From the NCBI GenBank assembly GCA_964498785.1, contig CAZCJL010000021.1, forward strand, positions 2,818-66,817: a DNA stretch of 64,000 nucleotides, written 5' to 3'. The notes beneath the pieces are model-generated. The model was given only the letters and a program-made list of their open reading frames with translations. It was not told the DNA's origin and searched no databases. Both the position numbers and the translations under genes were made by a program. Source of the DNA: an uncultured Cytophagia bacterium. Its GTDB lineage: Bacteria; Zhuqueibacterota; Zhuqueibacteria; Thermofontimicrobiales; Thiofontviventaceae. Of this stretch, positions 12,198-25,230 are shown piece by piece (within the stretch, counting starts at the first letter, position 1; each line of letters begins with the position of its first letter).

Positions 12198-12413
12198 ATG
12201 GCAGTAGAAAAAACCATCGCTTCTTCAAGCCTGGTAGAAGTTATCGACAGAGTGCTGGATAAGGGTATTGTAATCGACGCCTGGGCTCGTGTATCTTTAG
12301 TAGGTATTGAATTATTGGCTGTAGAAGCCCGCGTTGTTTTAGCTTCTGTAGAAACATATCTAAAATATGCTGAAGCAATCGGCTTAACAGCTACAGCGGC
12401 ACAACCCGCATAA
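12198..12413 (+). CDS. gvpA: Gas vesicle structural protein GvpA
   Basis: 71 aa: [64 protein letters not shown]. This is near-identical to the canonical cyanobacterial GvpA core. A strong SD (AAAGGAGGTG) lies 7 nt upstream. Confidence 0.97.
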
Positions 12414-12594
12414 GTTCATTCATTTTGTGAATCGGGAATTTTTTGTCGAAGCACCCTGAAAATGTGATTCCCTCCGATTAAAAGGGCTTTTATTAAAGCG
12501 TGTTTCGCCATAGATTTCCTGATTTTTTTTGAATTGATTTTCGGAAAACACAATTTCACTGTCGTTCTTCGAATGCGAAAGGGAAATAAGGTTT

Positions 12595-13230
12595 ATGGAT
12601 TTGATTTACAACGTGCAGAAGCTCACAAAGGAAATGATTACAGGTTATGATTTGCGGGTGGCAAAAATTGAAGAAGTATTAACTTCAGCTTATGATGTAT
12701 TAGAAGATTGTCGGGAAAGTAGAAAGAACGTTCGCGAACAGCTCAAACACAGTCTTGCCAATAAAAACTCGTTGCGCCGAAAAGATTTTGATATGATCGT
12801 ACAAGATTTACATCAATCGCAAGTTGAATGTGAAGCTCGAATCAAAGAAACGGTGCACATATTTACCAGGGAAAATAAATATCTTGCTGGGCAATTTTTC
12901 GAATCATTAATAACCGGCAAAATTGAACAGTCTAAAAAGGCTGTTAACAAAATTGAAAAAAACGGGAAAGAGATTCAGCACACAATTAAAACGTTTCAAC
13001 AAGAACAAAAACAAATTGCAACGGATTTGCATTCGTTTCTGGAAAAATGTGAATCGATCCGTATTAAAGATTTTAAAAAAATGATTGAAAAAATTCGTAT
13101 CCGTCAATGTGAACGCAGTGAAAAGATTAAACAGTTCTTAAAAAAAATATCTGAAGAACATAAGCAAATGCGTGCTGTTTGGCAAAATATATCGACTGAT
13201 AAAGCAAAATCACGTAACACGGATGCGTGA
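12595..13230 (+). CDS. Coiled-coil repeat protein in the gvpC position (candidate GvpC-like gas-vesicle shell or scaffold protein)
   Basis: 211 aa, Lys/Glu/Gln-rich with predicted coiled coil. It has an internal repeat about 95 aa apart (SLRRKDFDMIVQDLHQSQVECEARIKE vs SIRIKDFKKMIEKIRIRQCERSEKIKQ). It lies immediately downstream of gvpA, where gvpC sits in cyanobacterial and Serratia clusters. Confidence 0.45.
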   Translation: MDLIYNVQKLTKEMITGYDLRVAKIEEVLTSAYDVLEDCRESRKNVREQLKHSLANKNSLRRKDFDMIVQDLHQSQVECEARIKETVHIFTRENKYLAGQFFESLITGKIEQSKKAVNKIEKNGKEIQHTIKTFQQEQKQIATDLHSFLEKCESIRIKDFKKMIEKIRIRQCERSEKIKQFLKKISEEHKQMRAVWQNISTDKAKSRNTDA

Positions 13231-13262
13231 TTTTCACAAAATGAAGTTAACGGAGGTACATA

Positions 13263-14618
13263 ATGTCAAATTTAGATGATATGATGCGACTGAAAGAGGA
13301 GATCATCGCTTCGTTTGACGAGCGAATGAATACTCTTGCAAATATAGTTGAATCAACAACTGATCTCGCACAGTCAACACGAGAAATGACTGAACGACAT
13401 CGAAATGATCATCTTCTTATGAAAAATAATTTACAGTCACAATTAAGTGAATTTAGAACAAAATTGAGCGACGATAATTTAAAGCGCCTTGTTGCGACAA
13501 AGCATGAATTTAATGAAAGAATGAGTCAATTAACTGACTTGCTTGCTGCGTTTAAACCGGACGGAAAGTCGGAGTTGACACATTCAGTCAGAGAAACATT
13601 AGAAAAATTTCGTTCGGTGCGACTCGATGAATTCAATGTATTTTTGGAAAAATTACAGCAGCGTATTTATGAAATTAAAGACGAAGTTCATTCGACGATA
13701 GATGGGTTTAAGGAATCTCGGCATGAAATATCTGCCGCATTAGAGCGAAATTTGTCTGAATTTAATAAACAGCTTAAAAATTATCGGTCAACGCTTTCGA
13801 ACAACGAAAATAACAGATATAAGCAGGCGCAGGCAGAAATTCAAGAACGTACCATTTATCTGAATACTCTTTTTGGCGACGTCTCACGTTTGTTAAGCGA
13901 TTTTCGCACGGATCACCAGAAAATGTCGTCGATGTTAAAGGAGATGTTAACATTTAAGGGTTTCAATAACCAGCGGTTGAGCAATTTTCAAAATATGATG
14001 GATAATATTCTGGATCATCAGAAAAAGCGTGTTCACGATACAACCCAAATGATCTCAGGTTTTAATGAGTGGCATGATGATATAAAAAATGAATTGCATG
14101 ATCTGCTTTCTACTGTAAAATTGAATTTAGCGCAATTTAACGATGAACGCGTCAATTTAGCTCATGAAGAAATGAGTGAGCGCGTGGAATATATTTATCA
14201 AATGAAAAAAGACATCTCCACCATGCTGGGAAATTTGCGTAGTGAAAGCCAAAAAGTAGCGGACGAATGGAAGAATATCGCCAGAATAATAGACCAAAAA
14301 AGAAAAAAATCAGAAAAGGAACACATAAAGATTATTTCAGAAGAAGAACCTGAAATAAAAGCGCCAAAACCAGCGCCAGAAATGGAGAAGCAGGAAATTG
14401 TATCGAAAATGTATGCTTCGAAAACAGCGTCTGAAAATGATAACGACCCGAGTGACAAAATACTGGCTATTATCGCGCAACATGCTGATGAGGGAATTAA
14501 ATTGGCTGAAATTGGCAAGATTGTGAATAAAAAATGGCAGTCACTAATTCCTTTTACAAAAACACTTATGGAGCAGGGAAAGATAAAAAAAGAGGATACT
14601 GTGTATTTCCCGAATTAA
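13263..14618 (+). CDS. Large coiled-coil repeat protein (second GvpC-like candidate) with a C-terminal winged-helix-like segment
   Basis: 451 aa. A recurrent x[DEGN]F[RNKQ] motif appears at residues 64, 83, 116, 124, 149, 167, 213, 234, 242, 267 and 292. There is a clear internal duplication of about 118 aa (residues ~116-167 vs ~234-292). A Pro/Lys/Glu linker (EEEPEIKAPKPAPEMEKQE) precedes a C-terminal globular segment (ILAIIAQHADEGIKLAEIGKIVNKKW…). Confidence 0.45.
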   Translation: MSNLDDMMRLKEEIIASFDERMNTLANIVESTTDLAQSTREMTERHRNDHLLMKNNLQSQLSEFRTKLSDDNLKRLVATKHEFNERMSQLTDLLAAFKPDGKSELTHSVRETLEKFRSVRLDEFNVFLEKLQQRIYEIKDEVHSTIDGFKESRHEISAALERNLSEFNKQLKNYRSTLSNNENNRYKQAQAEIQERTIYLNTLFGDVSRLLSDFRTDHQKMSSMLKEMLTFKGFNNQRLSNFQNMMDNILDHQKKRVHDTTQMISGFNEWHDDIKNELHDLLSTVKLNLAQFNDERVNLAHEEMSERVEYIYQMKKDISTMLGNLRSESQKVADEWKNIARIIDQKRKKSEKEHIKIISEEEPEIKAPKPAPEMEKQEIVSKMYASKTASENDNDPSDKILAIIAQHADEGIKLAEIGKIVNKKWQSLIPFTKTLMEQGKIKKEDTVYFPN

Positions 14619-14665
14619 ACTGAGCTGAACCTGAAACCTAATATTACGCCTGGGAGAAATAGTCT

Positions 14666-15580
14666 ATGAACAATAATTCCACCGTCGTTCTTGAGCCGCT
14701 ATTAGATGATGAATATGTAATTACTCCGTATTTGAAAGATATCCTCGAATCAGCAAGCAATTACATGGATGCTGGTTATCCGATTCATTTCTGTGGACCG
14801 GCAGGAACTGGCAAAACATCTCTTGCTATGTATCTGGCAGCAAAATATAACCGACCGATCGTAATGATGCACGGGGATAATGAATTTGTTACCTCAGATT
14901 TAATTGGCGCTGAGCACGGAATTCGATCTCGAAAAGTGGTGGACAATTTTATTCATCATGTTTATAAAACCGAGGAACGCATCGACCGACAGTGGATGGA
15001 TAAACGACTTTCTCTGGCATGTAAAAAAGGTTTCACGTTAATTTATGATGAGTTTACCCGGTCAAAACCAGAGGCCAATAATGTATTGCTTTCAATCCTG
15101 GAAGAAAGAATGCTTGACCTTCCCGCACAAGTGAAGGGGGATGTTTATATAAAAGTACATCCTGAATTCAGGGCAATTTTCACAAGCAATCCGCAGGAAT
15201 ATGTTGGCATACATCGGGCGCAAGATGCATTGTTAGATCGGATGATTACAATTGATTTACAGCATCTTGATTTGGATACGGAAATTCGGATTACACAAAA
15301 AAGAGCTGACCTCACTTATAAGCACGCCAAAAAAATAGTGAATATTGTCCGCAATTTTCATATAAAAAATGGTAATGAAAAAATTTCCACATTGAGAGAT
15401 GCCATAAAAATCGGTAAAATTTCCAAATTGATGAATATCACACCATCTAAATCACAAAATAGATTTCGGAAAATATGTGTTGATATTTTAACATCAGATC
15501 CTCACATTCACAAATTTAATGGCGCTCCAAAATCTCAGTCCTTGAAATTTCTGGATGAACTTATCGAAGTATATTGTTAA
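14666..15580 (+). CDS. gvpN: Gas vesicle protein GvpN (MoxR/CbbQ-type AAA+ ATPase)
   Basis: 304 aa with Walker A (HFCGPAGTGKTSLA), Walker B (LIYDEF) and CbbQ/NirQ/GvpN-type architecture, lying between the gvpA and gvpO/F genes. Confidence 0.9.
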   Translation: MNNNSTVVLEPLLDDEYVITPYLKDILESASNYMDAGYPIHFCGPAGTGKTSLAMYLAAKYNRPIVMMHGDNEFVTSDLIGAEHGIRSRKVVDNFIHHVYKTEERIDRQWMDKRLSLACKKGFTLIYDEFTRSKPEANNVLLSILEERMLDLPAQVKGDVYIKVHPEFRAIFTSNPQEYVGIHRAQDALLDRMITIDLQHLDLDTEIRITQKRADLTYKHAKKIVNIVRNFHIKNGNEKISTLRDAIKIGKISKLMNITPSKSQNRFRKICVDILTSDPHIHKFNGAPKSQSLKFLDELIEVYC

Positions 15581-15601
15581 TATAACAGAAAGGGGTGAAT
15601 T

Positions 15602-15856
15602 ATGGCGCTTCAAAAGGTTATCGCTGCAATTAGCAACTTTTTTGAATCTGTATTAAATAAAAAGGGTCGGGTGATTGAGGTGAAAACTCAGGAGCGCGGC
15701 TGGTCTGCCTTGGTGGAAACAGTGGAAGAAGCCGAGTACATGCGCAAAATTGCCCAGGATGATCTGCTTGCTGTATATGAGGTTCACGTTGATCAAAATT
15801 ATGAAGTGGTTGACTACAGTCGAAAAAGTTTGCGTTCGAGAAAAGAAGCTGCATAA
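15602..15856 (+). CDS. gvpO: Gas vesicle protein GvpO
   Basis: 84 aa. The motif …GRVIEVKTQERGWSALVETVEEAEYMRKIAQDDLLAVYEVHVDQNYEVVDYSRK… matches the GvpO pattern (GW-V-VE-VE…LLA-YEV…G-VV-Y-R). An SD (AAAGGGGTGA) is present. Confidence 0.8.
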   Translation: MALQKVIAAISNFFESVLNKKGRVIEVKTQERGWSALVETVEEAEYMRKIAQDDLLAVYEVHVDQNYEVVDYSRKSLRSRKEAA

Positions 15857-15865
15857 GGTTTAAAA

Positions 15866-16192
15866 TTGAAAGGCGGTATTGGTATGTCACAAATTAAAGG
15901 ATTAAGTAATATTCGCTCCAGCCAGAGAATCCATCTAAGTTCTATTTCTAAAAAAGGACGTTCGAAATTCTTGACGCTGTTTATGTTGGATAATGAACGG
16001 CAATTATTGCAGAAAGATAGTGATATTTTGAAACAACGGCAATCAAGAAATCAGGAGCGGATTAAAGCAATTAACGCTGAGATTAATGAAAAACTGCAGC
16101 ACGATAGTGCAATGATTAATAAAAATGAAAAGGGACATTCTTTGATAAGAAAAATTCCGGAAAAGTGGAAGACTGCAAAAATCGATGTTTAA
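15866..16192 (+). CDS. Small basic coiled-coil protein of unknown function inside the gvp cluster
   Basis: 108 aa (or 102 aa from the second Met, MSQIKGL, at about 15884). It is rich in K/R/Q and sits between gvpO and the first gvpF/L. I recognised no known family. Confidence 0.4.
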   Translation: MKGGIGMSQIKGLSNIRSSQRIHLSSISKKGRSKFLTLFMLDNERQLLQKDSDILKQRQSRNQERIKAINAEINEKLQHDSAMINKNEKGHSLIRKIPEKWKTAKIDV

Positions 16193-16224
16193 AAATAGTG
16201 AAAGCGAAAAGTAATGGTGGAAAA

Positions 16225-17238
16225 ATGGCGGCAAAATATTTATACGGATTTATTGAGACTGATCGTGAGGAGAATTTCGGGAATATAGGCGTCGGTAATC
16301 AGAACAGGGTAACGACAATTCGTTATCGTGATGTTGCAGCAGTTGTTAGTGATCATCCTGTGATACAGTTTGATCAATTAGATGAAAGTCAGTTAACGAA
16401 CTATATTCAAAAACATCAGGTGGTTAATGAAAAGGTGCTGGAAAAACATACCATCATTCCGTTGAGGTTCGGAAACATTGCCCAAAATGCAGCAGATGTT
16501 CTGAAAATATTAAAACATGCTTATATTCAATTTAAAACACAACTGGATCAGTTGCAGGGAAAAATCGAACTTGTCATTCAGGCTACCGCGAACAAACAGG
16601 TCTGGTTGAAGGAGATCGTCGAGACAAATACGACGATAAAAGATTTGACAAAGAAATTGGATAAATCCGATGCGCAGGAGAAAATTCCCATCCAGGTCGA
16701 AATCGGAAAAATAATTCACAATACAATCGTACATAAAGAAAAAGAGATAGTCGTTGATATATTGGCAACACTTCGAAATGGCGGAAGTCCATATAGATCG
16801 GATAAATTACTGACCCAGGATATGATAATGAATATGTCCTTTTTAATTGATAGAACTGCTGAGTCTGCGTTTGATCAAAAATTAAATGAATTAGGGCAAC
16901 GATATGCAAATGATCTCACTTTCAAGTATATTGGCCCGCTACCGCCGTACAGTTTTACACAATTGAATTTAAAAACCACTGATTTGAATTTCATTAATAA
17001 TGCGCGAAAAATGCTGAATTTGCCAGGGAAAGCCTCAAAAAAGGAGATCAAAAAAGCGTATCGAACAATGGCGTCAAAATATCATCCGGATAGGACTGGA
17101 AATGATTCTCAAAAATTTAATGAAATTCACAACGCGTATCGCACTCTGGAAGTGTTTTGCAATAATTACCGCTATTCATTTGATGAAAAAACAATAAGTG
17201 AAACAGTGCTTATTGATGAACATTATAAAGAAGAATAG
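16225..17238 (+). CDS. GvpF/GvpL-family gas vesicle protein fused to a C-terminal DnaJ J-domain
   Basis: The real start is MAAKYLYGFIE at 16225, with a GGTGGA SD 5 nt upstream; the 16165 ORF start is an upstream extension. GvpF/L hallmarks are present: YLYGFI…VTTIRYRDVAAVVS…IPLRFG…KYIGPLPPYSF. The last ~70 aa (LPGKASKKEIKKAYRTMASKYHPDRTGNDSQKFNEIHNAYRTLEVF) form a J-domain with an intact HPD motif. Confidence 0.8.
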   Translation: MAAKYLYGFIETDREENFGNIGVGNQNRVTTIRYRDVAAVVSDHPVIQFDQLDESQLTNYIQKHQVVNEKVLEKHTIIPLRFGNIAQNAADVLKILKHAYIQFKTQLDQLQGKIELVIQATANKQVWLKEIVETNTTIKDLTKKLDKSDAQEKIPIQVEIGKIIHNTIVHKEKEIVVDILATLRNGGSPYRSDKLLTQDMIMNMSFLIDRTAESAFDQKLNELGQRYANDLTFKYIGPLPPYSFTQLNLKTTDLNFINNARKMLNLPGKASKKEIKKAYRTMASKYHPDRTGNDSQKFNEIHNAYRTLEVFCNNYRYSFDEKTISETVLIDEHYKEE

Positions 17239-17242
17239 TAAT

Positions 17243-18004
17243 ATGGGAAAATATATTTACTGCATTGTCGAAAACAGAGACCATCCGCAATTTACATCGA
17301 AAAATATTGGCAAAGAGTATTCTCCTGTTTATACCCTTAAATATAAAGATATTGGGGCAGTTATTAGTGAATCTCCGATTACAAAATATTCGTTTATTAG
17401 TGATAATTATATTGCACATCAAAAAGTAATTGAAGAATCTCAATCATACAATTTAAATCCATTACCAGTTCGGTTTTGCACAATTGCAAATAATGAGGAG
17501 AGCATTTGTGCAATATTAGATAAACGATATGAAGATTTTCAAGCGAATTTAAAACAGATGCAGGGAAAATACGAACTTGGTTTGAAAGTATTTTGGAAAG
17601 ATAATATTGCCTATGATGAAATTTTGCTGAACAATCCATCTATTCAAGCAGAGCGAGATCGATTGAAATCAATGGATCCTGAAAAAACCTATTTTCTACG
17701 TATCCGCGTTGGAGAGCTGGTTGAAAAAGCGATTACTGAAAAACGCGAACGTGAAATGCAAGAATTCATCAATCGTTTTCAGAATATTTGTTATGATTTA
17801 TCCATGGGACGTATCATTGGCGATAAGATGATATTTAACGCAGCATTTTTAGTCGATCGTGGCCAGGAAAAATTATTGGACGAAGAAGTGAATCGAATTG
17901 CTTTTGATAATGAATCTCGTTTGAAAATTAAATATGTTGGACCGGTTCCTCCATATAATTTTGTAGAAATTACGATAAATACGAATGAACTCGGTTTAAA
18001 TTAG
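17243..18004 (+). CDS. gvpF: GvpF/GvpL-family gas vesicle protein (paralog 2)
   Basis: Starts MGKYIYCIVE at 17243, after the upstream stop at 17236-17238. Motifs YIYCIV…YKDIGAVISE…PVRFCT…KYVGPVPPYNF are present. Confidence 0.8.
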   Translation: MGKYIYCIVENRDHPQFTSKNIGKEYSPVYTLKYKDIGAVISESPITKYSFISDNYIAHQKVIEESQSYNLNPLPVRFCTIANNEESICAILDKRYEDFQANLKQMQGKYELGLKVFWKDNIAYDEILLNNPSIQAERDRLKSMDPEKTYFLRIRVGELVEKAITEKREREMQEFINRFQNICYDLSMGRIIGDKMIFNAAFLVDRGQEKLLDEEVNRIAFDNESRLKIKYVGPVPPYNFVEITINTNELGLN

Positions 18005-18018
18005 GGATAAAATAAATA

Positions 18019-18249
18019 ATGGCGTTCATCATCGATGACATTTTATCACTGCCGGTTAAAGGAATCATCGGAATTTTCAAAGAAATTCATAACTACGCAG
18101 ATAAAGAGTTAAACGATATAGATTTCTGGCAACAAAAATTGCTCGAATTACAACTTCGTTATGAAATGGGGGAAATAGAGGAGCTGGAATTTAAACAACA
18201 GGAGAAAGATATTGTACAACGAATTTCCGAAATTCAAGAACGAGGATAA
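18019..18249 (+). CDS. gvpG: Gas vesicle protein GvpG
   Basis: 76 aa. MAFIIDDILSLPVKGIIGIFKEIHNYADKEL… matches the GvpG N-terminal MFLIDDLL…P pattern, and its position after gvpF is canonical. Confidence 0.8.
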   Translation: MAFIIDDILSLPVKGIIGIFKEIHNYADKELNDIDFWQQKLLELQLRYEMGEIEELEFKQQEKDIVQRISEIQERG

Positions 18250-19048
18250 TTTATATCTTTACTGTGTGCGGGAGAGGCGTGCCAATGAATTAAACGTGAC
18301 CGGTATATTTAATCAGGAAAAGGTTTTTTCGATCGTTTGTAAAAATTTAGAAGCAATTGTCAGTATTGTCCCGCAAAATCAATTTGATGATACTGATATA
18401 AAGAAGAAGGCACGGGAAGATATCAACTGGATAAAGGAAAAGGCGCAACTCCACGAGGCAATTGTGGAAAAAGCGATGTATCATTCATCAGAAATATATC
18501 CGGTTATTCCCATGCGGTTTGGAACGATTTTCAAATCAAAAGAAAAAATTAATCACCTGCTAACAAAGCACTACCATCAGTACAGCAATACAATTGCCCG
18601 TCTGACAAAAAAACAGGAATGGAGTGTAAAAGTATATCTGACGCATCAGGATCGGATCACCGATCATGTTGTTAGCACCAACGAATTTATCAAAAAAGAA
18701 CAAGCAGATGTCGCGGTTTTACCAAAAGGAATGGCCTATTTCATGCAAAAAAAACTTAACGAAATGGTAAAAAACGCTGTTGACGACAAAATGAATCAAT
18801 ATGTTCACGATATCATTGAGAGATTGGAAAAACATTCAACAGGACGTCACGAAGGAAAATTACTGGGACCGGAATTTACCGGGAAGAAAGCAACAATGGT
18901 TCTGAATGCAATTCTCCTGATTCATGAGGAAAGTGTTTTGGATTTAATTGAGGCAATACAGAAACTTCAGGATGAAATGAATGTTTTCGGGTTCCGGTTT
19001 GAATATAGCGGTCCGTGGCCTCCGTATCATTTTGTGGAGTCGCAGTAA
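18212..19048 (+). CDS. gvpL: GvpF/GvpL-family gas vesicle protein (paralog 3, GvpL-like)
   Basis: 278 aa with motifs LYLYCV…PMRFGTIF…FEYSGPWPPYHF. Its annotated start overlaps gvpG by 38 nt, so the start is uncertain. Confidence 0.7.
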   Translation: MYNEFPKFKNEDNLYLYCVRERRANELNVTGIFNQEKVFSIVCKNLEAIVSIVPQNQFDDTDIKKKAREDINWIKEKAQLHEAIVEKAMYHSSEIYPVIPMRFGTIFKSKEKINHLLTKHYHQYSNTIARLTKKQEWSVKVYLTHQDRITDHVVSTNEFIKKEQADVAVLPKGMAYFMQKKLNEMVKNAVDDKMNQYVHDIIERLEKHSTGRHEGKLLGPEFTGKKATMVLNAILLIHEESVLDLIEAIQKLQDEMNVFGFRFEYSGPWPPYHFVESQ

Positions 19049-19049
19049 A

Positions 19050-19589
19050 ATGAATAATACTTTTGCAGAAAAAGAGGTGACGCTGCTGGATGCGCTGGAC
19101 AGGGTTATCGAAAATGGTGCGGTCATAAGTGGTGATCTTACATTAAAAATGGCTGATATTGATTTGATCTATATTGGATTGCGGCTTATTGCAACATCCG
19201 TCTCAAAAGTTGAAAGCATGAATGGTTCGTCCCATCAATGCCCGGATCGGGAACCCACGGAACATGAATCAAATTACATACAAAAACTTGACTCTGAAAT
19301 TATAAAAGCAGAGCAGAATATTTCACAGTTGATTGAATTGCAAAATCCTGAAAAAACAGAGCAGGGACTGGCGCAAATAGTTTTGACTCTTGTGGTTTTA
19401 TTAAAAAGACTTATGGAACGGGAAGCCATGCGCAGAATTCAGCGCGGAGCATTATCCAATGTTGCAATTCAGAAACTGGGGTTGACGTTTATGGCGCTTG
19501 ATAAAAAGGTGGACGAACTCAAGTGTGTTTTTGGTCTCAAAGATGATGATTTAAATATTGATTTAGGCCCTTTGGGAAATTTGATGTAG
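19050..19589 (+). CDS. Fusion of a GvpJ/GvpM-like (GvpA-fold) domain and a GvpK domain
   Basis: The real start is probably MNNTFAEKEVTLLDALDRV at 19050, just after the gvpL stop. The N-domain LLDALDRVIENGAVISGDLTLKMADIDLIYIGLRLIATSV is GvpA/J/M-like. The C-domain GLAQIVLTLVVLLKRLMEREAMRRIQRGALSNVAIQKLG…DELKCVFGLKDDD matches the GvpK consensus (LVQLVLTVVELL…LEREAVRR…G.L…E.LG). Confidence 0.7.
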   Translation: MNNTFAEKEVTLLDALDRVIENGAVISGDLTLKMADIDLIYIGLRLIATSVSKVESMNGSSHQCPDREPTEHESNYIQKLDSEIIKAEQNISQLIELQNPEKTEQGLAQIVLTLVVLLKRLMEREAMRRIQRGALSNVAIQKLGLTFMALDKKVDELKCVFGLKDDDLNIDLGPLGNLM

Positions 19590-19629
19590 CAATTATTACT
19601 GCAATTTTGCAGTAAGTCAGGAGATAAAT

Positions 19630-19950
19630 ATGTCGGAACAGATAACCCACGGACTTCATTCCACAAATCTCGCGGATATTTTAGAGAGAGTATTGGATAA
19701 GGGGATTGTAATTGCCGGAGATATCCAAATTAAGCTTGCGGATATTGAGTTGCTAACGATAAAAATACGACTTATGGTGGCGTCTGTAGATAAAGCCGTT
19801 GAAATGGGAATTAATTGGTGGGAAAGTGATCCTTATTTAAATAATAATTCCAACGAATTAATCGAAGAAAATAATCAATTAAAAGAAAAATTAAATAAAA
19901 TTGAACGACAACAACAGCAGCGTAAACGAGGGTTAAAAGATGGAGAATAA
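19630..19950 (+). CDS. gvpJ: Gas vesicle protein GvpJ
   Basis: 106 aa. [57 protein letters not shown] shows a GvpA-fold plus the GvpJ-typical 'WW…DP.L' region and a basic C-tail. Confidence 0.85.
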   Translation: MSEQITHGLHSTNLADILERVLDKGIVIAGDIQIKLADIELLTIKIRLMVASVDKAVEMGINWWESDPYLNNNSNELIEENNQLKEKLNKIERQQQQRKRGLKDGE

Positions 19951-20470
19951 TAAAAAGAAAAAAGAGAAAGAACATGAGGTTAAAATAGATTTTGGGTTAG
20001 GAGGTTTGTTTAAAGGGCTCGGCAATCTGGTTGACCTTGTGTCTGAAATGTCTGAAAAAGGGGAGCAGATCAAGGAAAGAACGCAGGAATTTTCTGGTAA
20101 AGGTCCGTTCAAGGATGTGAACGGAGTTTATGGATTTTCAATTAAAATGGGCGCGAGTGGAAAACCTGAAGTAAATTCTTTTGGAAATGTAAAGAAAAGT
20201 CAAAACGGGCCTGTGGTTGATGAGGTGAGAGAACCGATGGTCGATATTTTTGAGGAAGATGATGAAATTCAGATCATCGCGGAAATGCCAGGTGTGGCTA
20301 AAAATCAAATCAAATTAGAATTGAATGGTGATGTGATGATGATTAGCGCGCAAAATAACAAACGAAAGTACCAGAAAGAGCTATTGTTACCAACACCAGT
20401 GAAAGAGCAGACAGTGGTCTATTCTTATAAAAATGGTATTCTTGAAGTTAAATTGGCGAAAAATTCATAG
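19940..20470 (+). CDS. Hsp20/alpha-crystallin small heat-shock protein (GvpH-like)
   Basis: 176 aa. The alpha-crystallin domain REPMVDIFEEDDEIQIIAEMPGVAKNQIKLELNGDVMMISA…VVYSYKNGILEVKLAK follows a Lys-rich N-terminus. Confidence 0.8.
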   Translation: MENNKKKKEKEHEVKIDFGLGGLFKGLGNLVDLVSEMSEKGEQIKERTQEFSGKGPFKDVNGVYGFSIKMGASGKPEVNSFGNVKKSQNGPVVDEVREPMVDIFEEDDEIQIIAEMPGVAKNQIKLELNGDVMMISAQNNKRKYQKELLLPTPVKEQTVVYSYKNGILEVKLAKNS

Positions 20471-20500
20471 CACTATTGAAAAAAGGATCCGGAGAGTCGA

Positions 20501-22639
20501 ATGGCGGAATCTACTGACAAAACGATTATACGATTGAGGGTAGCCGAATCGATGGCAAAAGATGTTGGCCGCGGGATTGCGCGCATCGACCCTGTTGATA
20601 TGAAGGCAATAAATGCCAGCGTTGGTGATATTGTTGAGATTGCCGGAAAAAGAAAAACAGTTGCCAAACTGATGCCCACGTATTCTGAATATCGGGAAAA
20701 AGGTTTAATCCAAATCGACGGCCTGATTCGAGAAAATGCCAAAGTGGGGCTGGATGAGCGCGTCGGAATCAAAAAAATCGAATCCCAACCGGCGACTAAA
20801 ATAATACTGGATCCGCTGTCCATTATTTCCGGTAGTTTACGAGAAAGCCGTTATATTGGTCGATTAATTGAGGGATTACCATTACAAAAGGGCGACCGCA
20901 TCCGGGCGAATTTAATCGGTTCCCGGTCCCAGGATTTTACTGTCATTGATACGAATCCGGGAGGAGTGGTGATGGTTCAGCCGTCCTCTCTTATTCAGAT
21001 TAAATCCAGAGATGAACAGAAGAAAGCTGGTCAAAAGATATCTTATGAAGATATTGGCGGTCTTCACAAAGAGATTCAACGAATCCGCGAAATGATTGAG
21101 CTTCCGCTAAAATATCCTCAAATTTTCCAACGGCTGGGAATTGACCCGCCAAAAGGAGTGCTGTTACTGGGGCCACCGGGAACCGGAAAAACGCTAATTG
21201 CCAGGGCGGTTGCAAACGAAACAGAAGCCTCATTTTTTGCGATCAATGGTCCGGAAGTGATTCATAAGTTTTACGGTGAAAGTGAAGCAAAACTACGCAG
21301 CATTTTTGAACAGGCAAATAAACAAGCGCCGAGCATCATTTTTCTCGACGAAATTGATGCGATATCACCAAAACGTGAATCTGTGGTTGGTGATGTTGAA
21401 AAAAGAGTTGTGGCTCAATTATTAGCTCTTATGGATGGACTTGCCAGCCGGGGACAGATTATCGTAATTGGCGCGACAAATATTCCCAATGCAATAGACC
21501 CGGCACTGCGCCGCCCCGGACGGTTTGATAGGGAAATCACCATTGGTGTTCCCGATAAAAAGGGGAGAGAACAGGTTCTGGAAATTCATACTCGTGGTAT
21601 GCCTCTGGCGGCAGATATTGATTTAAAAAGACTTGCCGAAATGACCCATGGCTTTGTCGGTGCAGATTTAGCAGCGCTATGCCGCGAATCGGCAATGAGC
21701 GCTTTGCGTACTATTTTCCCTAAAATCGATTTTGGTATGGATTCCATTCCCTATGAGACTATCCTGGAACTGGAAATAAACATGGACCACTTTTATGAGG
21801 CAATGAAAGAGGTAGAACCCTCTGCCACCCGTGAGGTATCTGTAGAAGTACCGAATGTCCGTTGGGATCAGGTTGGAGGATTGCAGGACGTAAAACAAAA
21901 ATTAATTGAAGCAATTGAGTGGCCGTTAAAATATGCGGAATTATTCGAAATTGCCAAAACGACTCCGCCGAAAGGAATTGTTTTACACGGACAACCGGGG
22001 ACCGGGAAAACATTATTGGCTAAAGCAGTGGCCACAGAAAGCGAGGTGAATTTTATTTCCATCAAAGGGCCGGAATTATTATCGAAATGGGTTGGTGAAA
22101 GCGAAAAGGGCGTTCGGGAGCTTTTTAAAAAAGCACGCCAGGCGGCTCCGTGCATACTCTTTTTTGACGAAATTGACGCCATTGCACCGGTTCGAGGCAG
22201 TGGCGGCTCAGATTCGCATGTTACAGAAAGAGTTATTAGTCAATTGCTCACTGAATTGGACGGTATCGAGGGCTTAAAAAACGTTGTCGTGATTGCGGCA
22301 ACAAACAGAATCGATATTATTGATGCGGCAGTATTACGACCGGGTCGATTTGATTTTTTGATCGAGCTTCCGGTGCCGGATCCTGAATCCAGAACAAAAA
22401 TATTCAATGTTCATTTGCATGATAAACCATTAGATAAAGATGTGAAGATTTCGAATTTGGTCAATGATACAGAAGGATTTGTAGGAGCAGACATCGAATC
22501 AATTTGTCGATATGCTTCCATGCTGGCAATTCGTGATGTAGTGGAGTCGCAAAAAGGGGATCAATTTGATTTAGAAAAGCTTCGATTAACTATGAAACAT
22601 TTTAAAATAGCGATTAACGATGCCGGTCAAAGGACTTAA
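20501..22639 (+). CDS. CDC48/VCP/VAT-type AAA+ ATPase (N-domain plus tandem D1 and D2 rings)
   Basis: 712 aa with an N-terminal double-psi-barrel-like segment. There are two Walker A sites ([22 protein letters not shown]), two Walker B sites ([18 protein letters not shown]) and second-region-of-homology motifs. Confidence 0.85.
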
Positions 22640-23105
22640 ACAGATAAAAACGCTTTCTTCAACTCGTCGAATTTCTGATAAAAATGGTCTCAATAAAATC
22701 AGTTCTTTAACAGTTATCAGGCACGTTCAAGCTCCTCCTGTAAAGAATCACCAGTCATATTCGCCAAAGACATGGGTTTTTATTGCAGAGCCAAAATTTG
22801 TGCGTTACCGGCAAAGTTTGCTTATCGAACGCTCTGAGGAACCTATGACTGAACTTTTCCAGGAAGCAGAAGCTGTTATTGTTATCGCTGAAATTCCGGG
22901 TGTTGCAGGAACAGACGATTTGAAATTAACGGTGGAAGGGGATATTTTAATTCTTGAAGCAATGGTCCGGGGGAAACAGGCCAATCGAAAATATTTTAAA
23001 GAAATCATCATCCCATTTCAAATAAATGAACGAGATATTGTTTTTTCATTAAACAACGGACTATTTGAAATTAAGTTATTTCCCCTAACCAGGAGGCATA
23101 AATGA
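22620..23105 (+). CDS. Divergent Hsp20/alpha-crystallin-like protein
   Basis: The C-terminal ~85 aa resemble an alpha-crystallin domain ([37 protein letters not shown]…[14 protein letters not shown]). The annotated N-terminus overlaps the AAA+ gene by 20 nt, so the true start may be internal (e.g. MTELF at about 22845). Confidence 0.55.
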
Positions 23106-23491
23106 GTTATATAAAAGTAATGGTCGTTGATGATAACGATGAAATACTTGATTTATTTAAAGATTTATTTCAAGAATTAAAATACCATGTGATGCTGGCA
23201 CATGATGGTAATGAGGCATTGCAATTATTCAAAAAAGAACAACCAGATGTAATTTTTCTGGATATTAGGATGCCTGGCCCGGATGGTATCGAAACACTTA
23301 AAAAATTAAAGCAAATTGATAATGGTAATAATGCAACAGTTGTGATGATAACAGGTTACGGTGATATTGAAACAGCCAGGCAGGCGATGCAATTGGGCGC
23401 TTACGAGTATCTTACAAAACCAATTGATTTGAATGCAATCAAGTCGATCTGTGAAGAAGTTATAGAAGAAACGGTGGTTGTGAATGCCTGA
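23102..23491 (+). CDS. Stand-alone response-regulator receiver domain (CheY-like)
   Basis: 129 aa. VMVVDDNDEILDL…DVIFLDIRMPGPDG…MITGYGD…KP shows the Asp pocket, the phospho-acceptor D in LDIRMP and the conserved K. There is no output domain. Confidence 0.85.
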   Translation: MSYIKVMVVDDNDEILDLFKDLFQELKYHVMLAHDGNEALQLFKKEQPDVIFLDIRMPGPDGIETLKKLKQIDNGNNATVVMITGYGDIETARQAMQLGAYEYLTKPIDLNAIKSICEEVIEETVVVNA

Positions 23492-24110
23492 TTTGATTTA
23501 TGTGCCAATCGTTCATACAGAAGCAGATTTGGGTACTCTTGCCAAATCGTTCAAAAATGAATATACGAAAAAATATTCAAGGCAGCGTTATGAAAACCAT
23601 GTTCAGACTATTCAGAGAATGTGGGATGAAATTAGTGTTTCATTATTAAAGATGGATCTGGAATGGCACAAAATACGGATATATCAGGATGGCCTTCCGG
23701 TATGTGGAAAAGAAGCTGAAATTGTCACAGAATTAGCCGCGCAGGGAAGCCGAAATCATCAATTAGTATTATTACTGATTGAAAAAGGTGCTCATTTAGA
23801 GGGAACTGAAGACAAAAAATTGCTATTAGAGGAATATCAGCATTATCAGAATATTTTTAATGCCAAAAGTCCTGTTATAAAAAACAGGTTGCTACACAAT
23901 TATCAAAAGAAAAGCGAGAAATTGTTGTACCAGCGGGATCAATTTGTTGCGAAACAAATTACAAACACACTGCGAGCGGGTGAAACCGCAATCCTGTTTA
24001 TGGGAATGCTCCATCATGTTGAACAATTTCTTGATAAAAAGATTCGTATTCAATACCTGATCCGCAGGCTTCCGTTGCATAAAAATGCTCGGTTAACAAC
24101 TGTCGAGTAA
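23484..24110 (+). CDS. Hypothetical protein of unknown family, translationally coupled to the receiver gene
   Basis: 208 aa with an 8-nt overlap with the receiver gene. I recognised no motif. It is the last gene of the plus-strand gvp block. Confidence 0.4.
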   Translation: MPDLIYVPIVHTEADLGTLAKSFKNEYTKKYSRQRYENHVQTIQRMWDEISVSLLKMDLEWHKIRIYQDGLPVCGKEAEIVTELAAQGSRNHQLVLLLIEKGAHLEGTEDKKLLLEEYQHYQNIFNAKSPVIKNRLLHNYQKKSEKLLYQRDQFVAKQITNTLRAGETAILFMGMLHHVEQFLDKKIRIQYLIRRLPLHKNARLTTVE

Positions 24111-24112
24111 AA

Positions 24113-24556
24113 TTATGGTTCAGTTTTTCTTTTCTGAAACGCTTTGTTTAAGATAATCTGAGTGGCTTCGGGAATATCGATAGATATTAATTCGTCATGC
24201 GAAAACCATCTGGCGTCTTTAGCGTCTGTATCAGCAGAAAGTTCACCATTTAGATAGATCGCCTCATAATCGACTAAAATATAGTGATATTGCACAGTTC
24301 CATTTTCATCTTTCAGAATCAAATCCAAGACGTCAATCACCTCGCCAATAGTTACTTTGATATTACATTCTTCCATAATTTCGCGTGCACAGGCTTTTTT
24401 TAGTTCTTCGCCAAGTTCAACAAGGCCGCCAGGCAAAGCCCAGAGACCAGCGCTTGGATCTTTACTTCGCTGGATTAATAATACTTTCTCGTTTTTATTG
24501 AATACAACGGCGCCAACGCCAACCATCGGATAGTCCGGATATGCGCGTCCTTTCAT
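24113..24556 (-). CDS. NUDIX hydrolase
   Basis: The Nudix box GGLVELGEELKKACAREIMEECNI matches GX5EX7REUXEEXGU. Confidence 0.85.
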   Translation of the reverse strand: MKGRAYPDYPMVGVGAVVFNKNEKVLLIQRSKDPSAGLWALPGGLVELGEELKKACAREIMEECNIKVTIGEVIDVLDLILKDENGTVQYHYILVDYEAIYLNGELSADTDAKDARWFSHDELISIDIPEATQIILNKAFQKRKTEP

Positions 24557-25230
24557 GAAAACATTCTCCGAAATTTTTTATAATCCGGAATGATTACTTT
24601 TCGACCTTCCCGAATAATGAGTTTTTCGTCTTCTAAATATTTAAATACCCTGGAAATAGTTTCCCGGGATGTGCCCGACATATTCGCCATGTCTTGTTGG
24701 AGCGGAATACGCGGAATTTCCATAGTGTTCTGTTTTCCTTTACCTTGATCTTCCGCCAGCATTGACAGGGTGGAGGCTACCCGTCCCATTGCATCTTGTA
24801 GCGAAAGGCTTTTAATTTGCGTATCACTTCGCCTGATTCTGGCAGCCAACTCTTTTAACAAACCAATCGCGATTTGCGGATAATCTTCCATTAACTTTAA
24901 AAAATCTCCCCTGCGTAGAATAAGTACTTGAGAATCTTCAACTGCGGTGACACTGGCAGACCGTGACTTCCCATCGAGCAAAGACATTTCACCAAAAAAG
25001 CCACCACTCTCTAAAATGGATAAAATAACCTCCCGTCCGTCATCGCTCATGCGGGAAACCTTCACACGTCCCTTCTGAATAAGAAACATTGAATTACCCG
25101 GATCTTCCTCAATTAAAATTATGCGATCCTTTTCATATTTTTTGCTGACACATAGATTACGGATTTGTTCAAGTTCTTCTTCATCTAATTGAGAAAAAAT
25201 AGGCACTCGTTTAAGAAGTGACGTCTCCAT
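24553..25230 (-). CDS. Crp/Fnr-family transcriptional regulator (cNMP-binding domain plus C-terminal HTH)
   Basis: 225 aa with a cNMP-binding beta-roll (…FFGEMSLLDG…RSASVTA…) and a C-terminal HTH (SGTSRETISRVFKYLEDEKLI). Confidence 0.85.
   Translation of the reverse strand: METSLLKRVPIFSQLDEEELEQIRNLCVSKKYEKDRIILIEEDPGNSMFLIQKGRVKVSRMSDDGREVILSILESGGFFGEMSLLDGKSRSASVTAVEDSQVLILRRGDFLKLMEDYPQIAIGLLKELAARIRRSDTQIKSLSLQDAMGRVASTLSMLAEDQGKGKQNTMEIPRIPLQQDMANMSGTSRETISRVFKYLEDEKLIIREGRKVIIPDYKKFRRMFS

What the first reader, a model, noticed from the sequence alone, without database searches (positions are those of the whole stretch)
19940..23105. Chaperone-like module (Hsp20 - CDC48/VAT-type double AAA+ - Hsp20-like) embedded at the end of the gvp cluster
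A 712-aa protein with CDC48-type architecture (N-domain plus D1 and D2, each with Walker A/B) is flanked by two alpha-crystallin-domain genes. CDC48/VAT-type unfoldases are rare in bacteria. Here one is co-oriented with the gvp genes, and its stop overlaps the next ORF. Together with GvpN (a MoxR AAA+) this gives the cluster two different AAA+ machines plus holdase-type sHsps. This is consistent with controlled unfolding and refolding of amyloid-like GvpA. The alternative is that the trio is an unrelated proteostasis module.
Basis: partly seen in the sequence, partly recalled or inferred. Interest (0 to 1): 0.7.

Follow-up and report, generated by a model that had tools for sequence, protein, structure and literature searches.

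The report
Gas-vesicle-dedicated Cdc48 unfoldase chaperone module
A bacterial gas-vesicle gene cluster ends with a small-heat-shock-protein plus Cdc48/VAT unfoldase module that recurs inside gas-vesicle clusters of more than ten bacterial and archaeal lineages, so these otherwise unexplained bacterial Cdc48 enzymes most likely handle the aggregation-prone shell proteins of this organelle.

Summary
Window 19940-23105 encodes sHsp (176 aa), a full Cdc48/VAT ATPase (712 aa; N-domain, D1, D2, all motifs intact) and a divergent second sHsp (161 aa). All three are translationally packed behind gvpJ.

In 161 Cdc48 loci from two collections, every gvp- or partner-linked copy (47) falls in one 60-member NJ clade; none of 101 copies outside it is linked. 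With at least 5 kb on both flanks, 16/17 clade loci carry gvp genes against 0/33 outside (p = 3.5e-12). Nine of ten named genomes have the gene inside a gvp cluster.

The trio as described is not the conserved unit. The second sHsp occurs in only four loci. The recurrent module is tail-less sHsp, often an ArsA-like ATPase, Cdc48, often a receiver domain, and a previously unannotated 208-aa protein (23484-24110) with an EreA/ChaN/TraB-like fold.

The sHsp-Cdc48 pair is a known archaeal heat-shock operon, here recruited to gas vesicles. The clade lacks the proteasome-docking HbYX tail.

The mechanism (holdase plus unfoldase quality control or turnover of GvpA-family proteins) is inferred, not shown. 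I found no paper describing the linkage.

The parts
19940..20470 (+). sHsp-1: archaeal-Hsp20-type small heat-shock protein. It lacks the C-terminal IXI tail and has an N-terminal GLGGLFKGLGNLVDLV motif. Its start overlaps the gvpJ stop by 11 nt.
   Evidence: Pfam HSP20 33.7 bits and NCBIfam NF041800 160.6 bits, both above cut-off. Best PDB match is 4rzk, an archaeal Hsp20 ACD, E = 2.3e-17. An IXI tail is present in 0/24 clade sHsps against 11/13 housekeeping archaeal ones.
20501..22639 (+). Cdc48/VAT-type double-ring AAA+ unfoldase with N-domain, D1 and D2. It has no HbYX C-terminus.
   Evidence: TIGR01243 954.5 bits. Pfam CDC48_N, CDC48_2, 2x AAA, 2x lid. VAT 5g4f 730 bits. Motif conservation, and HbYX in 0/60 clade members against 13/101 outside.
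22620..23105 (+). sHsp-2: divergent alpha-crystallin-domain paralogue with a distinct 75-aa N-terminal region. It overlaps the Cdc48 stop by 20 nt and has restricted distribution.
   Evidence: BLASTP to sHsp-1 E = 3e-19. NF041800 E = 1.4e-15. Full-length homologues only in L001, L085 and L168.
23102..23491 (+). Receiver-only response regulator (CheY-like; DD, D54, T84 and K106 present). It has a 4-nt overlap with sHsp-2.
   Evidence: Pfam Response_reg 108 bits. The same gene lies beside Cdc48/p208 in L082, L085, L167 and L168. A natural receiver-p208 fusion exists, P0361.
23484..24110 (+). p208: conserved partner of the gvp-clade Cdc48 and an unannotated family. It has an EreA/ChaN/TraB(TIKI)-like fold with invariant His11, Asp15, Glu109, Arg151 and His177. 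It is a putative regulated hydrolase.
12198..19950 (+). Upstream gvp genes in the same orientation: gvpA 12198-12413; two coiled-coil ORFs; gvpN 14666-15580; gvpO 15602-15856; gvpF/L with J-domain 16225-17238; gvpF/L 17243-18004; gvpG 18019-18249; gvpF/L 18212-19048; GvpJ/M-like+GvpK 19050-19589; gvpJ 19630-19950.
   Evidence: Pfam assignments of called genes on the identical contig L081. No terminator-like or promoter-like excess between gvpJ and the module.

Best explanation
The region is the 3' part of a gas-vesicle operon in a candidate-division KSB1 bacterium. It encodes a dedicated proteostasis module descended from the archaeal Hsp20-Cdc48 heat-shock pair.

Proposed working model:
1. 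The tail-less sHsp (and, in this lineage, a second sHsp) binds non-native or mis-assembled hydrophobic GvpA-family proteins (GvpA/J/M-like).
2. The stand-alone Cdc48/VAT hexamer threads them through its two active rings. This either returns them to an assembly-competent state or removes them.
3. The co-conserved receiver domain plus the 208-aa EreA/ChaN/TraB-like protein supply a phosphorylation-controlled hydrolytic or processing step.

Shown here:
- the domain architecture and intact catalytic motifs;
- membership of a distinct Cdc48 clade;
- conserved gvp linkage of that clade across many phyla;
- the conserved partners;
- loss of the proteasome-docking motif and of the sHsp IXI tail.

Inferred only: the substrate (Gvp shell proteins), the direction of action (rescue versus removal), and any enzymatic activity of p208.
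For: 1. Family and activity potential: TIGR01243 above cut-off and VAT as the best PDB hit. Walker A/B, sensor-1, Arg fingers and aromatic D1 and D2 pore loops are conserved in the linked clade.

2. Linkage. All 47 gvp- and/or p208-linked Cdc48s lie in one NJ clade of 60, and 0/101 outside are linked. With at least 5 kb on both flanks, 16/17 against 0/33 carry gvp genes, Fisher p = 3.5e-12.

3. Named genomes with Cdc48 inside gvp clusters: Ca. Methylomirabilis limnetica, Desulfofundulus, Ca. Hakubella, an Actinomycetota MAG, Latescibacteria, Zixibacteria, Poribacteria and GCA_029262005. GTDB MAG titles add Dehalococcoidia, Desulfobacteraceae, Atribacterota, Oscillochloris, Methanoperedens and Methanoregulaceae.

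4. The position within the cluster varies while the linkage persists.

5. The genes are translationally packed, with overlaps of 11, 20, 4 and 8 nt.

6. These clusters also carry other chaperone-type parts: a J-domain fused to GvpF/L, an ArsA-like ATPase, and Hsp70 in Hakubella.

7. Literature:
- Hsp20-Cdc48 is an archaeal heat-shock operon (PMC5852551, PMC12974425).
- The Hsp20-like GvpH keeps GvpM soluble (PMC6107691).
- GvpA aggregation is proteotoxic (PMC12848028).

8. HbYX is absent in 0/60 clade members, so the enzyme is not a 20S activator.
Against: - There is no experimental or interaction evidence for any substrate.
- The NJ clade has only 51/100 bootstrap support and contains 13 unlinked members, some with full flanks: L048/L020, L029, and the L086 Bacteroidetes MAG.
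- The Cdc48-p208 pair also occurs without gvp genes. L117 has it with a ClpP-like gene and Hsp20, and L024 is another case. The module is therefore not intrinsically gas-vesicle specific.
- Model gvp clusters (Halobacterium, Anabaena, B. megaterium, Serratia; PMC9501494) form vesicles without any Cdc48, so the module is accessory.
- The distance correlations with GvpN, sHsp and p208 could reflect shared phylogeny rather than function.
- The p208 fold match is only moderate (Foldseek E = 0.028).
Confidence: 0.55

Rival explanations
1. Signal-controlled gas-vesicle removal. Cdc48 extracts shell or scaffold proteins from existing or collapsed vesicles. The receiver-regulated p208 hydrolase degrades them, giving active loss of buoyancy or recycling of shell protein.
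For: - A receiver domain is conserved next to Cdc48/p208 and is sometimes fused to p208.
- Histidine kinases often flank these clusters.
- L117 pairs the module with a ClpP-like protease.
- Cdc48 enzymes are segregases in other systems (established knowledge).
Against: - No protease activity is shown for p208, and the fold family includes non-enzymes such as ChaN.
- Many loci lack the receiver: L003, L005, L008, L012, L013.
- Active vesicle disassembly has not been reported in studied systems (own knowledge).
Confidence: 0.17
2. Generic stress-proteostasis module that merely hitch-hikes with horizontally transferred gvp islands and serves the whole proteome.
For: - The sHsp-Cdc48 adjacency also exists at 17/101 non-gvp archaeal loci and is a heat-shock operon.
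- Some clade members lack gvp neighbours.
Against: - Linkage is 16/17 against 0/33.
- The module is found at different internal positions of clusters in more than ten lineages.
- The clade shows specific changes: no sHsp IXI tail, a new N-terminal motif and no HbYX.
- The host has its own bacterial proteostasis context, and the genes overlap gvp genes.
Confidence: 0.08
3. Regulatory proteolysis switch analogous in logic to haloarchaeal GvpD-GvpE. Cdc48/p208 controls the level of a regulator or of one limiting Gvp rather than acting on shell-protein folding.
For: - Receiver-domain coupling.
- GvpD is an NTPase that lowers GvpE (PMC9501494).
- Two-component genes surround several of these clusters.
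Against: - There is no transcription factor gene inside the window's cluster. The nearest is a convergent Crp-family gene.
- The presence of sHsp, ArsA and J-domain parts points to bulk handling of hydrophobic clients.
- There is no homology to GvpD.
Confidence: 0.08
4. Obligatory assembly motor. Cdc48 performs a mechanical step of shell growth, such as subunit insertion or priming, in this class of clusters, alongside GvpN.
For: - It always co-occurs with GvpN rather than replacing it.
- It lies mid-cluster among gvpF/G/J/K in many genomes.
Against: - Well-studied clusters assemble without it.
- Its unfoldase pore loops and sHsp partner fit quality control better than polymerisation.
Confidence: 0.1

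Closest known systems
Archaeal Hsp20-Cdc48 heat-shock operon (Phr/HSR1 regulon; Nitrosopumilus Nmar_0010/0011) and Thermoplasma VAT
   Same: - The same two families in the same gene order (sHsp immediately upstream of Cdc48).
- VAT is the best solved relative, and the sHsp passes the 'archaeal Hsp20' model.
- Both rings have aromatic pore loops, as in VAT.
- Such adjacency is seen at 17 non-gvp archaeal loci and described in PMC5852551 and PMC12974425.
   Different: - It sits in a gvp operon of a bacterium.
- It belongs to a separate clade.
- It has no HbYX tail (0/60 against 13/101).
- The sHsp has lost the IXI tail and gained a distinct N-terminal motif.
- It has extra partners: p208, a receiver domain, an ArsA-like ATPase and a second sHsp.
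- No Phr/HSR1-type regulator gene is adjacent.
Known accessory chaperone-like genes of gas-vesicle clusters (GvpH; hsp20 and ArsA homologues noted by Castillo and Saier 2010; GvpN AAA+)
   Same: - hsp20 and arsA-like genes inside gvp clusters are already documented (PMC2963123; PMC7325909).
- GvpH acts as an anti-aggregation factor for GvpM.
- GvpN is a cluster-encoded AAA+.
   Different: - A Cdc48/VAT unfoldase as a recurrent gvp-cluster gene was not found in any paper returned by the five full-text term queries that paired 'gas vesicle' with Cdc48-type or AAA+/unfoldase terms.
- The sHsp is not Pfam GvpH (no hit at E <= 10).
- Cdc48 is a classical-clade double-ring threading enzyme, unlike the single-ring MoxR-like GvpN.
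Sporadic non-actinobacterial bacterial Cdc48 homologues (Ziemski et al. 2018)
   Same: They are described as rare bacterial Cdc48s nested within archaeal Cdc48 and acquired by HGT (PMC6017811). This matches the present clade, which includes a small archaeal subclade.
   Different: No function or genomic context was assigned there. Here most such genes are shown to sit in gvp clusters. They are distinct from Cpa, Msm0858 and ARC: pup_AAA 414.6 bits, below the 504.75 cut-off.
EreA/ChaN/TraB-PrgY-GumN/TIKI-like superfamily (for p208)
   Different: - It scores below every curated cut-off and has no sequence hit in the PDB.
- It is much smaller (about 205 aa).
- Equivalence of its catalytic residues was not verified.
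- Its context (Cdc48, receiver domain, gvp) is new for this fold.

Membership tests
Cdc48/VAT/p97 (TIGR01243) | Whole-protein score above the curated family cut-off | tested here: met
   954.5 bits against a cut-off of 802.65
Cdc48/VAT/p97 (TIGR01243) | N-terminal double-psi barrel plus beta-clam domain (CDC48_N, CDC48_2) | tested here: met
   PF02359 88.5 bits (residues 11-94) and PF02933 36.1 bits (residues 116-172), both above cut-off
Cdc48/VAT/p97 (TIGR01243) | Two tandem classical AAA modules with Walker A/B, sensor-1 and Arg fingers | tested here: met
   D1: [31 protein letters not shown]2: [30 protein letters not shown]
Cdc48/VAT/p97 (TIGR01243) | Aromatic pore-1 loops (VAT-like in both rings) | tested here: met
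   D1 KFYG and D2 KWVG, conserved in the clade
Cdc48/VAT/p97 (TIGR01243) | C-terminal HbYX motif for 20S proteasome docking (a feature of proteasome-coupled archaeal Cdc48, not of the family as a whole) | tested here: not met
   The C-terminus is ...AGQRT. A penultimate Tyr occurs in 0/60 clade members against 13/101 outside
Cdc48/VAT/p97 (TIGR01243) | Hexameric ATP-dependent unfoldase activity | not testable with these tools
   Needs biochemistry
Small heat-shock proteins (Hsp20/alpha-crystallin) | Alpha-crystallin domain | tested here: met
   sHsp-1: PF00011 33.7 bits (cut-off 20.8) and NF041800 160.6 bits (cut-off 140). sHsp-2: PF00011 17 bits, below cut-off, but E = 3e-19 to sHsp-1 and NF041800 E = 1.4e-15
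Small heat-shock proteins (Hsp20/alpha-crystallin) | C-terminal extension with IXI/V anchoring motif for large oligomers | tested here: not met
   Both window sHsps end a few residues after the last ACD strand. The motif is present in 0/24 clade sHsps against 11/13 housekeeping archaeal partners
Small heat-shock proteins (Hsp20/alpha-crystallin) | ATP-independent holdase activity | not testable with these tools
   Needs biochemistry
Gas-vesicle (gvp) gene cluster | GvpA plus the core accessory set (GvpN, F/L, G, J, K, O) in one co-oriented array | tested here: met
   Pfam Gas_vesicle, AAA_5 (GvpN), GvpO, three GvpL_GvpF, GvpG and GvpK
Gas-vesicle (gvp) gene cluster | The candidate gene is retained within gvp clusters of unrelated lineages | tested here: met
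   16/17 against 0/33 loci with full flanks. Nine of ten genome look-ups
GvpH (Pfam PF05455) | Match to the GvpH profile | tested here: not met
   No PF05455 hit for either sHsp at E <= 10
Housekeeping bacterial AAA+ families (FtsH, ARC/Mpa, ClpB, Cpa/Msm0858) | Score above family cut-off, or these families as the closest relatives | tested here: not met
   FtsH 520 bits (cut-off 600) and no protease domain. pup_AAA 414.6 bits (cut-off 504.75). VAT, p97 and Cdc48 fill the top PDB hits
TraB/PrgY/GumN-TIKI/ChaN/Ere superfamily (p208) | Shared fold | tested here: met
TraB/PrgY/GumN-TIKI/ChaN/Ere superfamily (p208) | Profile score above the Pfam PF01963 gathering threshold | tested here: not met
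   Best member E = 1.6e-4. The window protein scores 15.9 bits against a cut-off of 26.8
TraB/PrgY/GumN-TIKI/ChaN/Ere superfamily (p208) | Catalytic His/Glu residues at equivalent structural positions | tested here: inconclusive
   H11, D15, E109, R151 and H177 are invariant, but residue-level superposition was not available
Anti-phage defence systems (PADLOC) | Specific match to a defence-system protein model | tested here: not met
   Only generic AAA or receiver-domain hits. None for the sHsps or p208

The most novel reading that the evidence does not exclude
The sporadic archaeal-type Cdc48 enzymes of bacteria are, as a clade, organelle-dedicated machines. Together with a tail-less sHsp and a receiver-controlled EreA/ChaN/TraB-like hydrolase, they form a signal-regulated system that actively extracts and destroys gas-vesicle shell protein. 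That would be a first enzymatic route for dismantling or turning over gas vesicles, rather than only a folding aid.
Probability: 0.15. Interest if true: 0.85.

Novelty: new variant of a known kind. Interest (0 to 1): 0.66.

Why it matters
**A context for orphan bacterial Cdc48s.** The analysis gives a concrete genomic context, and so a testable function, to bacterial Cdc48/VAT homologues. These were previously noted only as rare HGT products (PMC6017811).

**A large, unstudied class of gvp clusters.** It defines a class of gas-vesicle clusters found mostly in uncultured or anaerobic lineages: KSB1, NC10, Zixibacteria, Latescibacteria, Poribacteria, Chloroflexota, Actinomycetota, Desulfobacterota, Bacillota, Methanoperedens and methanogens. 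These clusters carry their own chaperone network of sHsp, an ArsA-like ATPase, a J-domain GvpF/L and Cdc48.

**Relevance to heterologous expression.** Heterologous gas-vesicle expression for acoustic reporter genes is limited by GvpA aggregation and toxicity (PMC12848028). Cluster mining has deliberately avoided non-gvp genes (PMC10344784). The module is therefore an obvious candidate helper set to test.

**A new protein family.** The analysis also exposes an unannotated family of about 1300 cluster representatives (p208), partnered with Cdc48 and a receiver domain.

Tried and rejected
- **Literature.** Five full-text term queries returned no paper linking a Cdc48-type ATPase to gvp clusters: 'gas vesicle' with CDC48; with transitional endoplasmic reticulum ATPase; with unfoldase; with valosin; and with gvp/AAA+/gene cluster/phylogen. 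The hits were incidental. The Barthelme and Sauer review (PMC4860136) is not held.
- **Source genome.** It is not among the GTDB representatives (best hit 75%). Cluster look-up gave no names. The organism was assigned to candidate division KSB1 via MutS, 90% identical.
- **Long Cdc48 hits.** P0002 and P0005 (about 1000 aa) were checked as possible Cdc48-partner fusions. They are triple-AAA proteins with a duplicated D1, not fusions.
- **p208 and the PDB.** The p208 profile found nothing meaningful in the PDB by sequence. The afdb50 fold library was unavailable. Foldseek against the PDB was only weakly supportive.
- **Signals.** The promoter and terminator scan showed no excess over shuffles and no internal boundary.
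- **Defence system.** PADLOC gave only generic domain hits, so a defence-system reading is rejected.
- **GvpH.** GvpH identity of the sHsps is rejected.
- **First bootstrap run.** It timed out and was redone with a custom NJ. Support for the clade boundary is only 51/100, so the linkage statistics rest mainly on counts, not on the exact node.
- **GvpA distances.** The GvpA-Cdc48 distance correlation was not significant (r = 0.13).


Full report
**1. What is in the sequence**

The + strand between 12198 and 24110 carries an uninterrupted, co-oriented gene array. Pfam and NCBIfam scans, and the gene calls on the identical public contig (Logan SRR7048224, L081), identify the following:
- gvpA (12198-12413) and two coiled-coil ORFs;
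- gvpN (AAA_5, 14666-15580) and gvpO;
- three gvpF/L, the first with a C-terminal J-domain;
- gvpG, a Gas_vesicle+GvpK ORF, and gvpJ (19630-19950).

The finding's three genes follow, and then two more:
- sHsp-1 (19940-20470) starts 11 nt inside gvpJ.
- The 712-aa ATPase (20501-22639) starts 30 nt after sHsp-1, behind a GGAG.
- sHsp-2 (22620-23105) starts 20 nt inside the ATPase gene.
- A receiver-only response regulator (23102-23491) overlaps sHsp-2 by 4 nt.
- A 208-aa ORF, 'p208' (23484-24110), overlaps the regulator by 8 nt.

The next gene, a Nudix-family gene, is convergent. Consensus promoter and terminator scans show nothing above shuffled expectation inside the array. The module therefore reads as the 3' end of the gvp operon and is two genes longer than the finding's coordinates.

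MutS in the window is 90% identical to a candidate division KSB1 MutS, so the host is a KSB1 bacterium. Lnt and BamD-like genes fit a diderm.

**2.

The ATPase:
- It scores 954.5 bits on TIGR01243 'CDC48 family AAA ATPase' (cut-off 802.65).
- FtsH (520 bits; cut-off 600; no protease domain) and the ARC/Mpa model (414.6 bits; cut-off 504.75) fail.
- Pfam finds CDC48_N, CDC48_2, two AAA domains and two lids.
- The best solved relatives are Thermoplasma VAT (5g4f, 730 bits), then plant, human and yeast Cdc48/p97.
- Both rings keep Walker A/B, sensor-1 and Arg fingers. Both pore-1 loops are aromatic (KFYG, KWVG) as in VAT.

The sHsps:
- sHsp-1 passes Pfam HSP20 and the NCBIfam 'archaeal Hsp20' equivalog. 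Its closest solved relative is an archaeal Hsp20 ACD (4rzk).
- sHsp-2 is below the Pfam threshold. It is still unambiguously an alpha-crystallin paralogue: E = 3e-19 to sHsp-1 and NF041800 E = 1.4e-15.

**3. Is the module tied to gas vesicles?**

I fetched 80 Cdc48 loci from GTDB species representatives and 80 from JGI metagenomes. I added nine genome contexts by exact look-up. I searched all of them with the window's Gvp, sHsp and p208 proteins (tblastn).

- In a 161-sequence NJ tree, all 47 loci that have gvp genes and/or p208 fall into one clade of 60. None of the 101 sequences outside it is linked; these are mostly housekeeping archaeal Cdc48.
- Restricting to loci with at least 5 kb on both sides gives 16/17 against 0/33 with gvp genes, Fisher p = 3.5e-12.
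- Named examples with Cdc48 inside a gvp cluster are Ca. Methylomirabilis limnetica (NC10), Desulfofundulus sp. (Bacillota), Ca. Hakubella thermalkaliphila and another Actinomycetota MAG, Latescibacteria, Zixibacteria, Poribacteria and GCA_029262005.
- MAG titles add Dehalococcoidia, Desulfobacteraceae/Desulfobacula, Atribacterota and Oscillochloris. A small archaeal subclade holds Methanoperedens and Methanoregulaceae.
- The gene's position differs between genomes. It lies between gvpN and gvpF in Desulfofundulus, before gvpK in L085, mid-cluster in NC10, and at the cluster end here. The linkage persists throughout, which argues for function rather than accident.
- Cdc48 distances correlate with those of neighbouring GvpN (Mantel r = 0.52, p = 0.002), sHsp (0.75) and p208 (0.51). 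This is consistent with co-inheritance, although shared phylogeny could also produce it.

Caveats:
- The clade node has only 51/100 NJ bootstrap support.
- Thirteen members lack gvp or p208 in the retrieved flank. Some have ample flank: L048/L020, L029, and the Bacteroidetes MAG L086.

**4. What the conserved unit really is**

- *The second sHsp is not part of it.* The sHsp-2 type occurs only in the window, L001, L085 and a Zixibacteria MAG.
- *An sHsp-1 orthologue upstream* is recurrent: 29/60 clade loci.
- *An ArsA-like ATPase* often lies between sHsp and Cdc48, or elsewhere in the cluster (L082, L083, L085, L084, L168, L170). It is absent from the window.
- *A receiver domain* is often present.
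- *p208* lies directly or closely downstream in 30/60 clade loci and 0/101 outside.

A natural fusion of a receiver domain to p208 exists (P0361; P0364 is partial). This suggests the receiver controls p208, though a frameshift artefact cannot be excluded.

In L117 the module appears without gvp genes, as ClpP-like, Hsp20, Cdc48, an unassigned 240-aa ORF and then p208. The module is therefore a self-contained proteostasis unit that is usually, but not always, embedded in gvp clusters.

**5. Origin and clade-specific changes**

An sHsp immediately upstream of Cdc48 is also seen at 17 non-gvp archaeal loci, in Thermoplasmata, Nitrososphaeraceae and others. It is a documented heat-shock operon or regulon in archaea (PMC5852551, PMC12974425).

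The gvp-linked versions differ in three ways:
- No clade member has the penultimate-Tyr HbYX tail used to dock on 20S proteasomes (0/60 against 13/101).
- Their sHsps have lost the C-terminal IXI oligomerisation tail (0/24 against 11/13). The aligned gvp-linked ones carry a conserved N-terminal GLGGLFKG-type motif that the aligned housekeeping archaeal Hsp20s lack; a strict pattern for it matched 8/24 clade sHsps and 0/13 outside.
- The D1 sensor-1 context is GATNIPN rather than GATNR(P/V/I)N.

Ziemski et al. noted that non-actinobacterial bacterial Cdc48s are infrequent, nest within archaeal Cdc48, and were probably acquired by HGT. They assigned no function (PMC6017811). The present data give most of them a context.

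**6. Most likely mechanism (inferred)**

GvpA-family proteins are very hydrophobic, aggregate and are proteotoxic (PMC12848028). The Hsp20-like GvpH keeps GvpM soluble in haloarchaea (PMC6107691). hsp20 and arsA homologues in gvp clusters have been proposed as chaperones (PMC2963123).

In this class of clusters a J-domain is also fused to GvpF/L, and Hakubella adds an Hsp70. The best-supported reading is therefore a dedicated holdase-unfoldase quality-control system for shell-family proteins:
- the sHsp captures the client;
- the stand-alone Cdc48 unfolds and releases it;
- the receiver-controlled p208 adds a hydrolytic or processing branch.

Rivals are regulated vesicle dismantling or turnover, a hitch-hiking general stress module, a GvpD-like regulatory switch, and an obligatory assembly motor. 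Only the hitch-hiking model is clearly disfavoured by the data. None of the mechanistic steps is demonstrated.

**7. Novelty**

Already known:
- hsp20 and ArsA genes in gvp clusters;
- the archaeal Hsp20-Cdc48 operon;
- sporadic bacterial Cdc48s.

Not found in any paper returned by five full-text term queries:
- a Cdc48/VAT unfoldase clade that resides in gvp clusters across many phyla;
- its tail-less sHsp;
- the p208 and receiver partners.

Model clusters lack this module (PMC9501494). Cluster mining for reporter genes avoided non-gvp genes (PMC10344784). Both facts may explain why it has been overlooked.

I rate it a new variant of a known kind: a gvp cluster with a recruited archaeal heat-shock unfoldase module. 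It is of clear interest to gas-vesicle and AAA+ specialists, but its mechanism is untested.

Noticed in passing
window 16165-17238 (gene call 16225-17238); also L082, L084, L085, L167-L170: One GvpF/L paralogue carries a C-terminal J-domain with an HPD motif (Pfam GvpL_GvpF + DnaJ). The fusion recurs in every Cdc48-type cluster inspected with gene calls except Desulfofundulus L083. It implies Hsp70 recruitment to the vesicle assembly machinery.
   Followed up: partly
window 23484-24110; P0361, P0364: The unannotated 208-aa family (about 1287 representatives) has an EreA/ChaN/TraB-like fold and invariant His/Asp/Glu/His. It is a Cdc48 partner and sometimes occurs as a receiver-domain fusion.
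   Followed up: yes
L082 9045-10001; L083 9001-9948; L085 9085-10038; L084, L168, L170: An ArsA/Get3-like ATPase (single- or double-domain) sits between Hsp20 and Cdc48, or elsewhere in related clusters. It is missing from the window's cluster.
   Followed up: partly
window 18981-19589 (gene call 19050-19589): A single ORF combines a Gas_vesicle (GvpJ/M-like) domain with GvpK. In relatives these are separate genes.
   Followed up: no
window 12595-13230 and 13263-14618: Two long coiled-coil ORFs lie directly after gvpA, in the position of GvpC. They have no Pfam family. Weak homologues occupy the same position in L006, L010 and L011.
   Followed up: no
L117 1366-6695: The module occurs outside any gvp context, as ClpP-like protease, 277-aa Hsp20, Cdc48, a 240-aa ORF and p208, next to ruvA and uvrB.
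   Followed up: partly
L084 20977-22178: The Ca. Hakubella gvp cluster ends with an Hsp70 gene. The published description of this genome mentions only hsp20 near the gvp genes (PMC7325909).
   Followed up: no
Cdc48 residue ~324-330 (window 21470-21490): There is a clade-specific substitution next to D1 sensor-1: GATNIPN in gvp-linked Cdc48s against GATNR(P/V/I)N in housekeeping archaeal ones. Its significance is unknown.
   Followed up: no
L082 1-1383; L167 1-1595 and 13752-15906; L169 8502-9938 and 15214-20610: PAS-histidine kinases, extra receiver proteins and a sigma-54 activator flank several Cdc48-type gvp clusters. The window's cluster has only the internal receiver and a convergent Crp/cNMP-binding regulator (24553-25230).
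   Followed up: no
P0002, P0005 (not in the window): These are about 1000-aa Cdc48 homologues with a duplicated D1 module, that is, three AAA modules. They may be real triple-ring enzymes or assembly artefacts.
   Followed up: partly
window 6165-10919: A 1584-aa PA14-domain protein and a SpoU methylase lie immediately upstream of gvpA. Any relation to the cluster is unknown.
   Followed up: no
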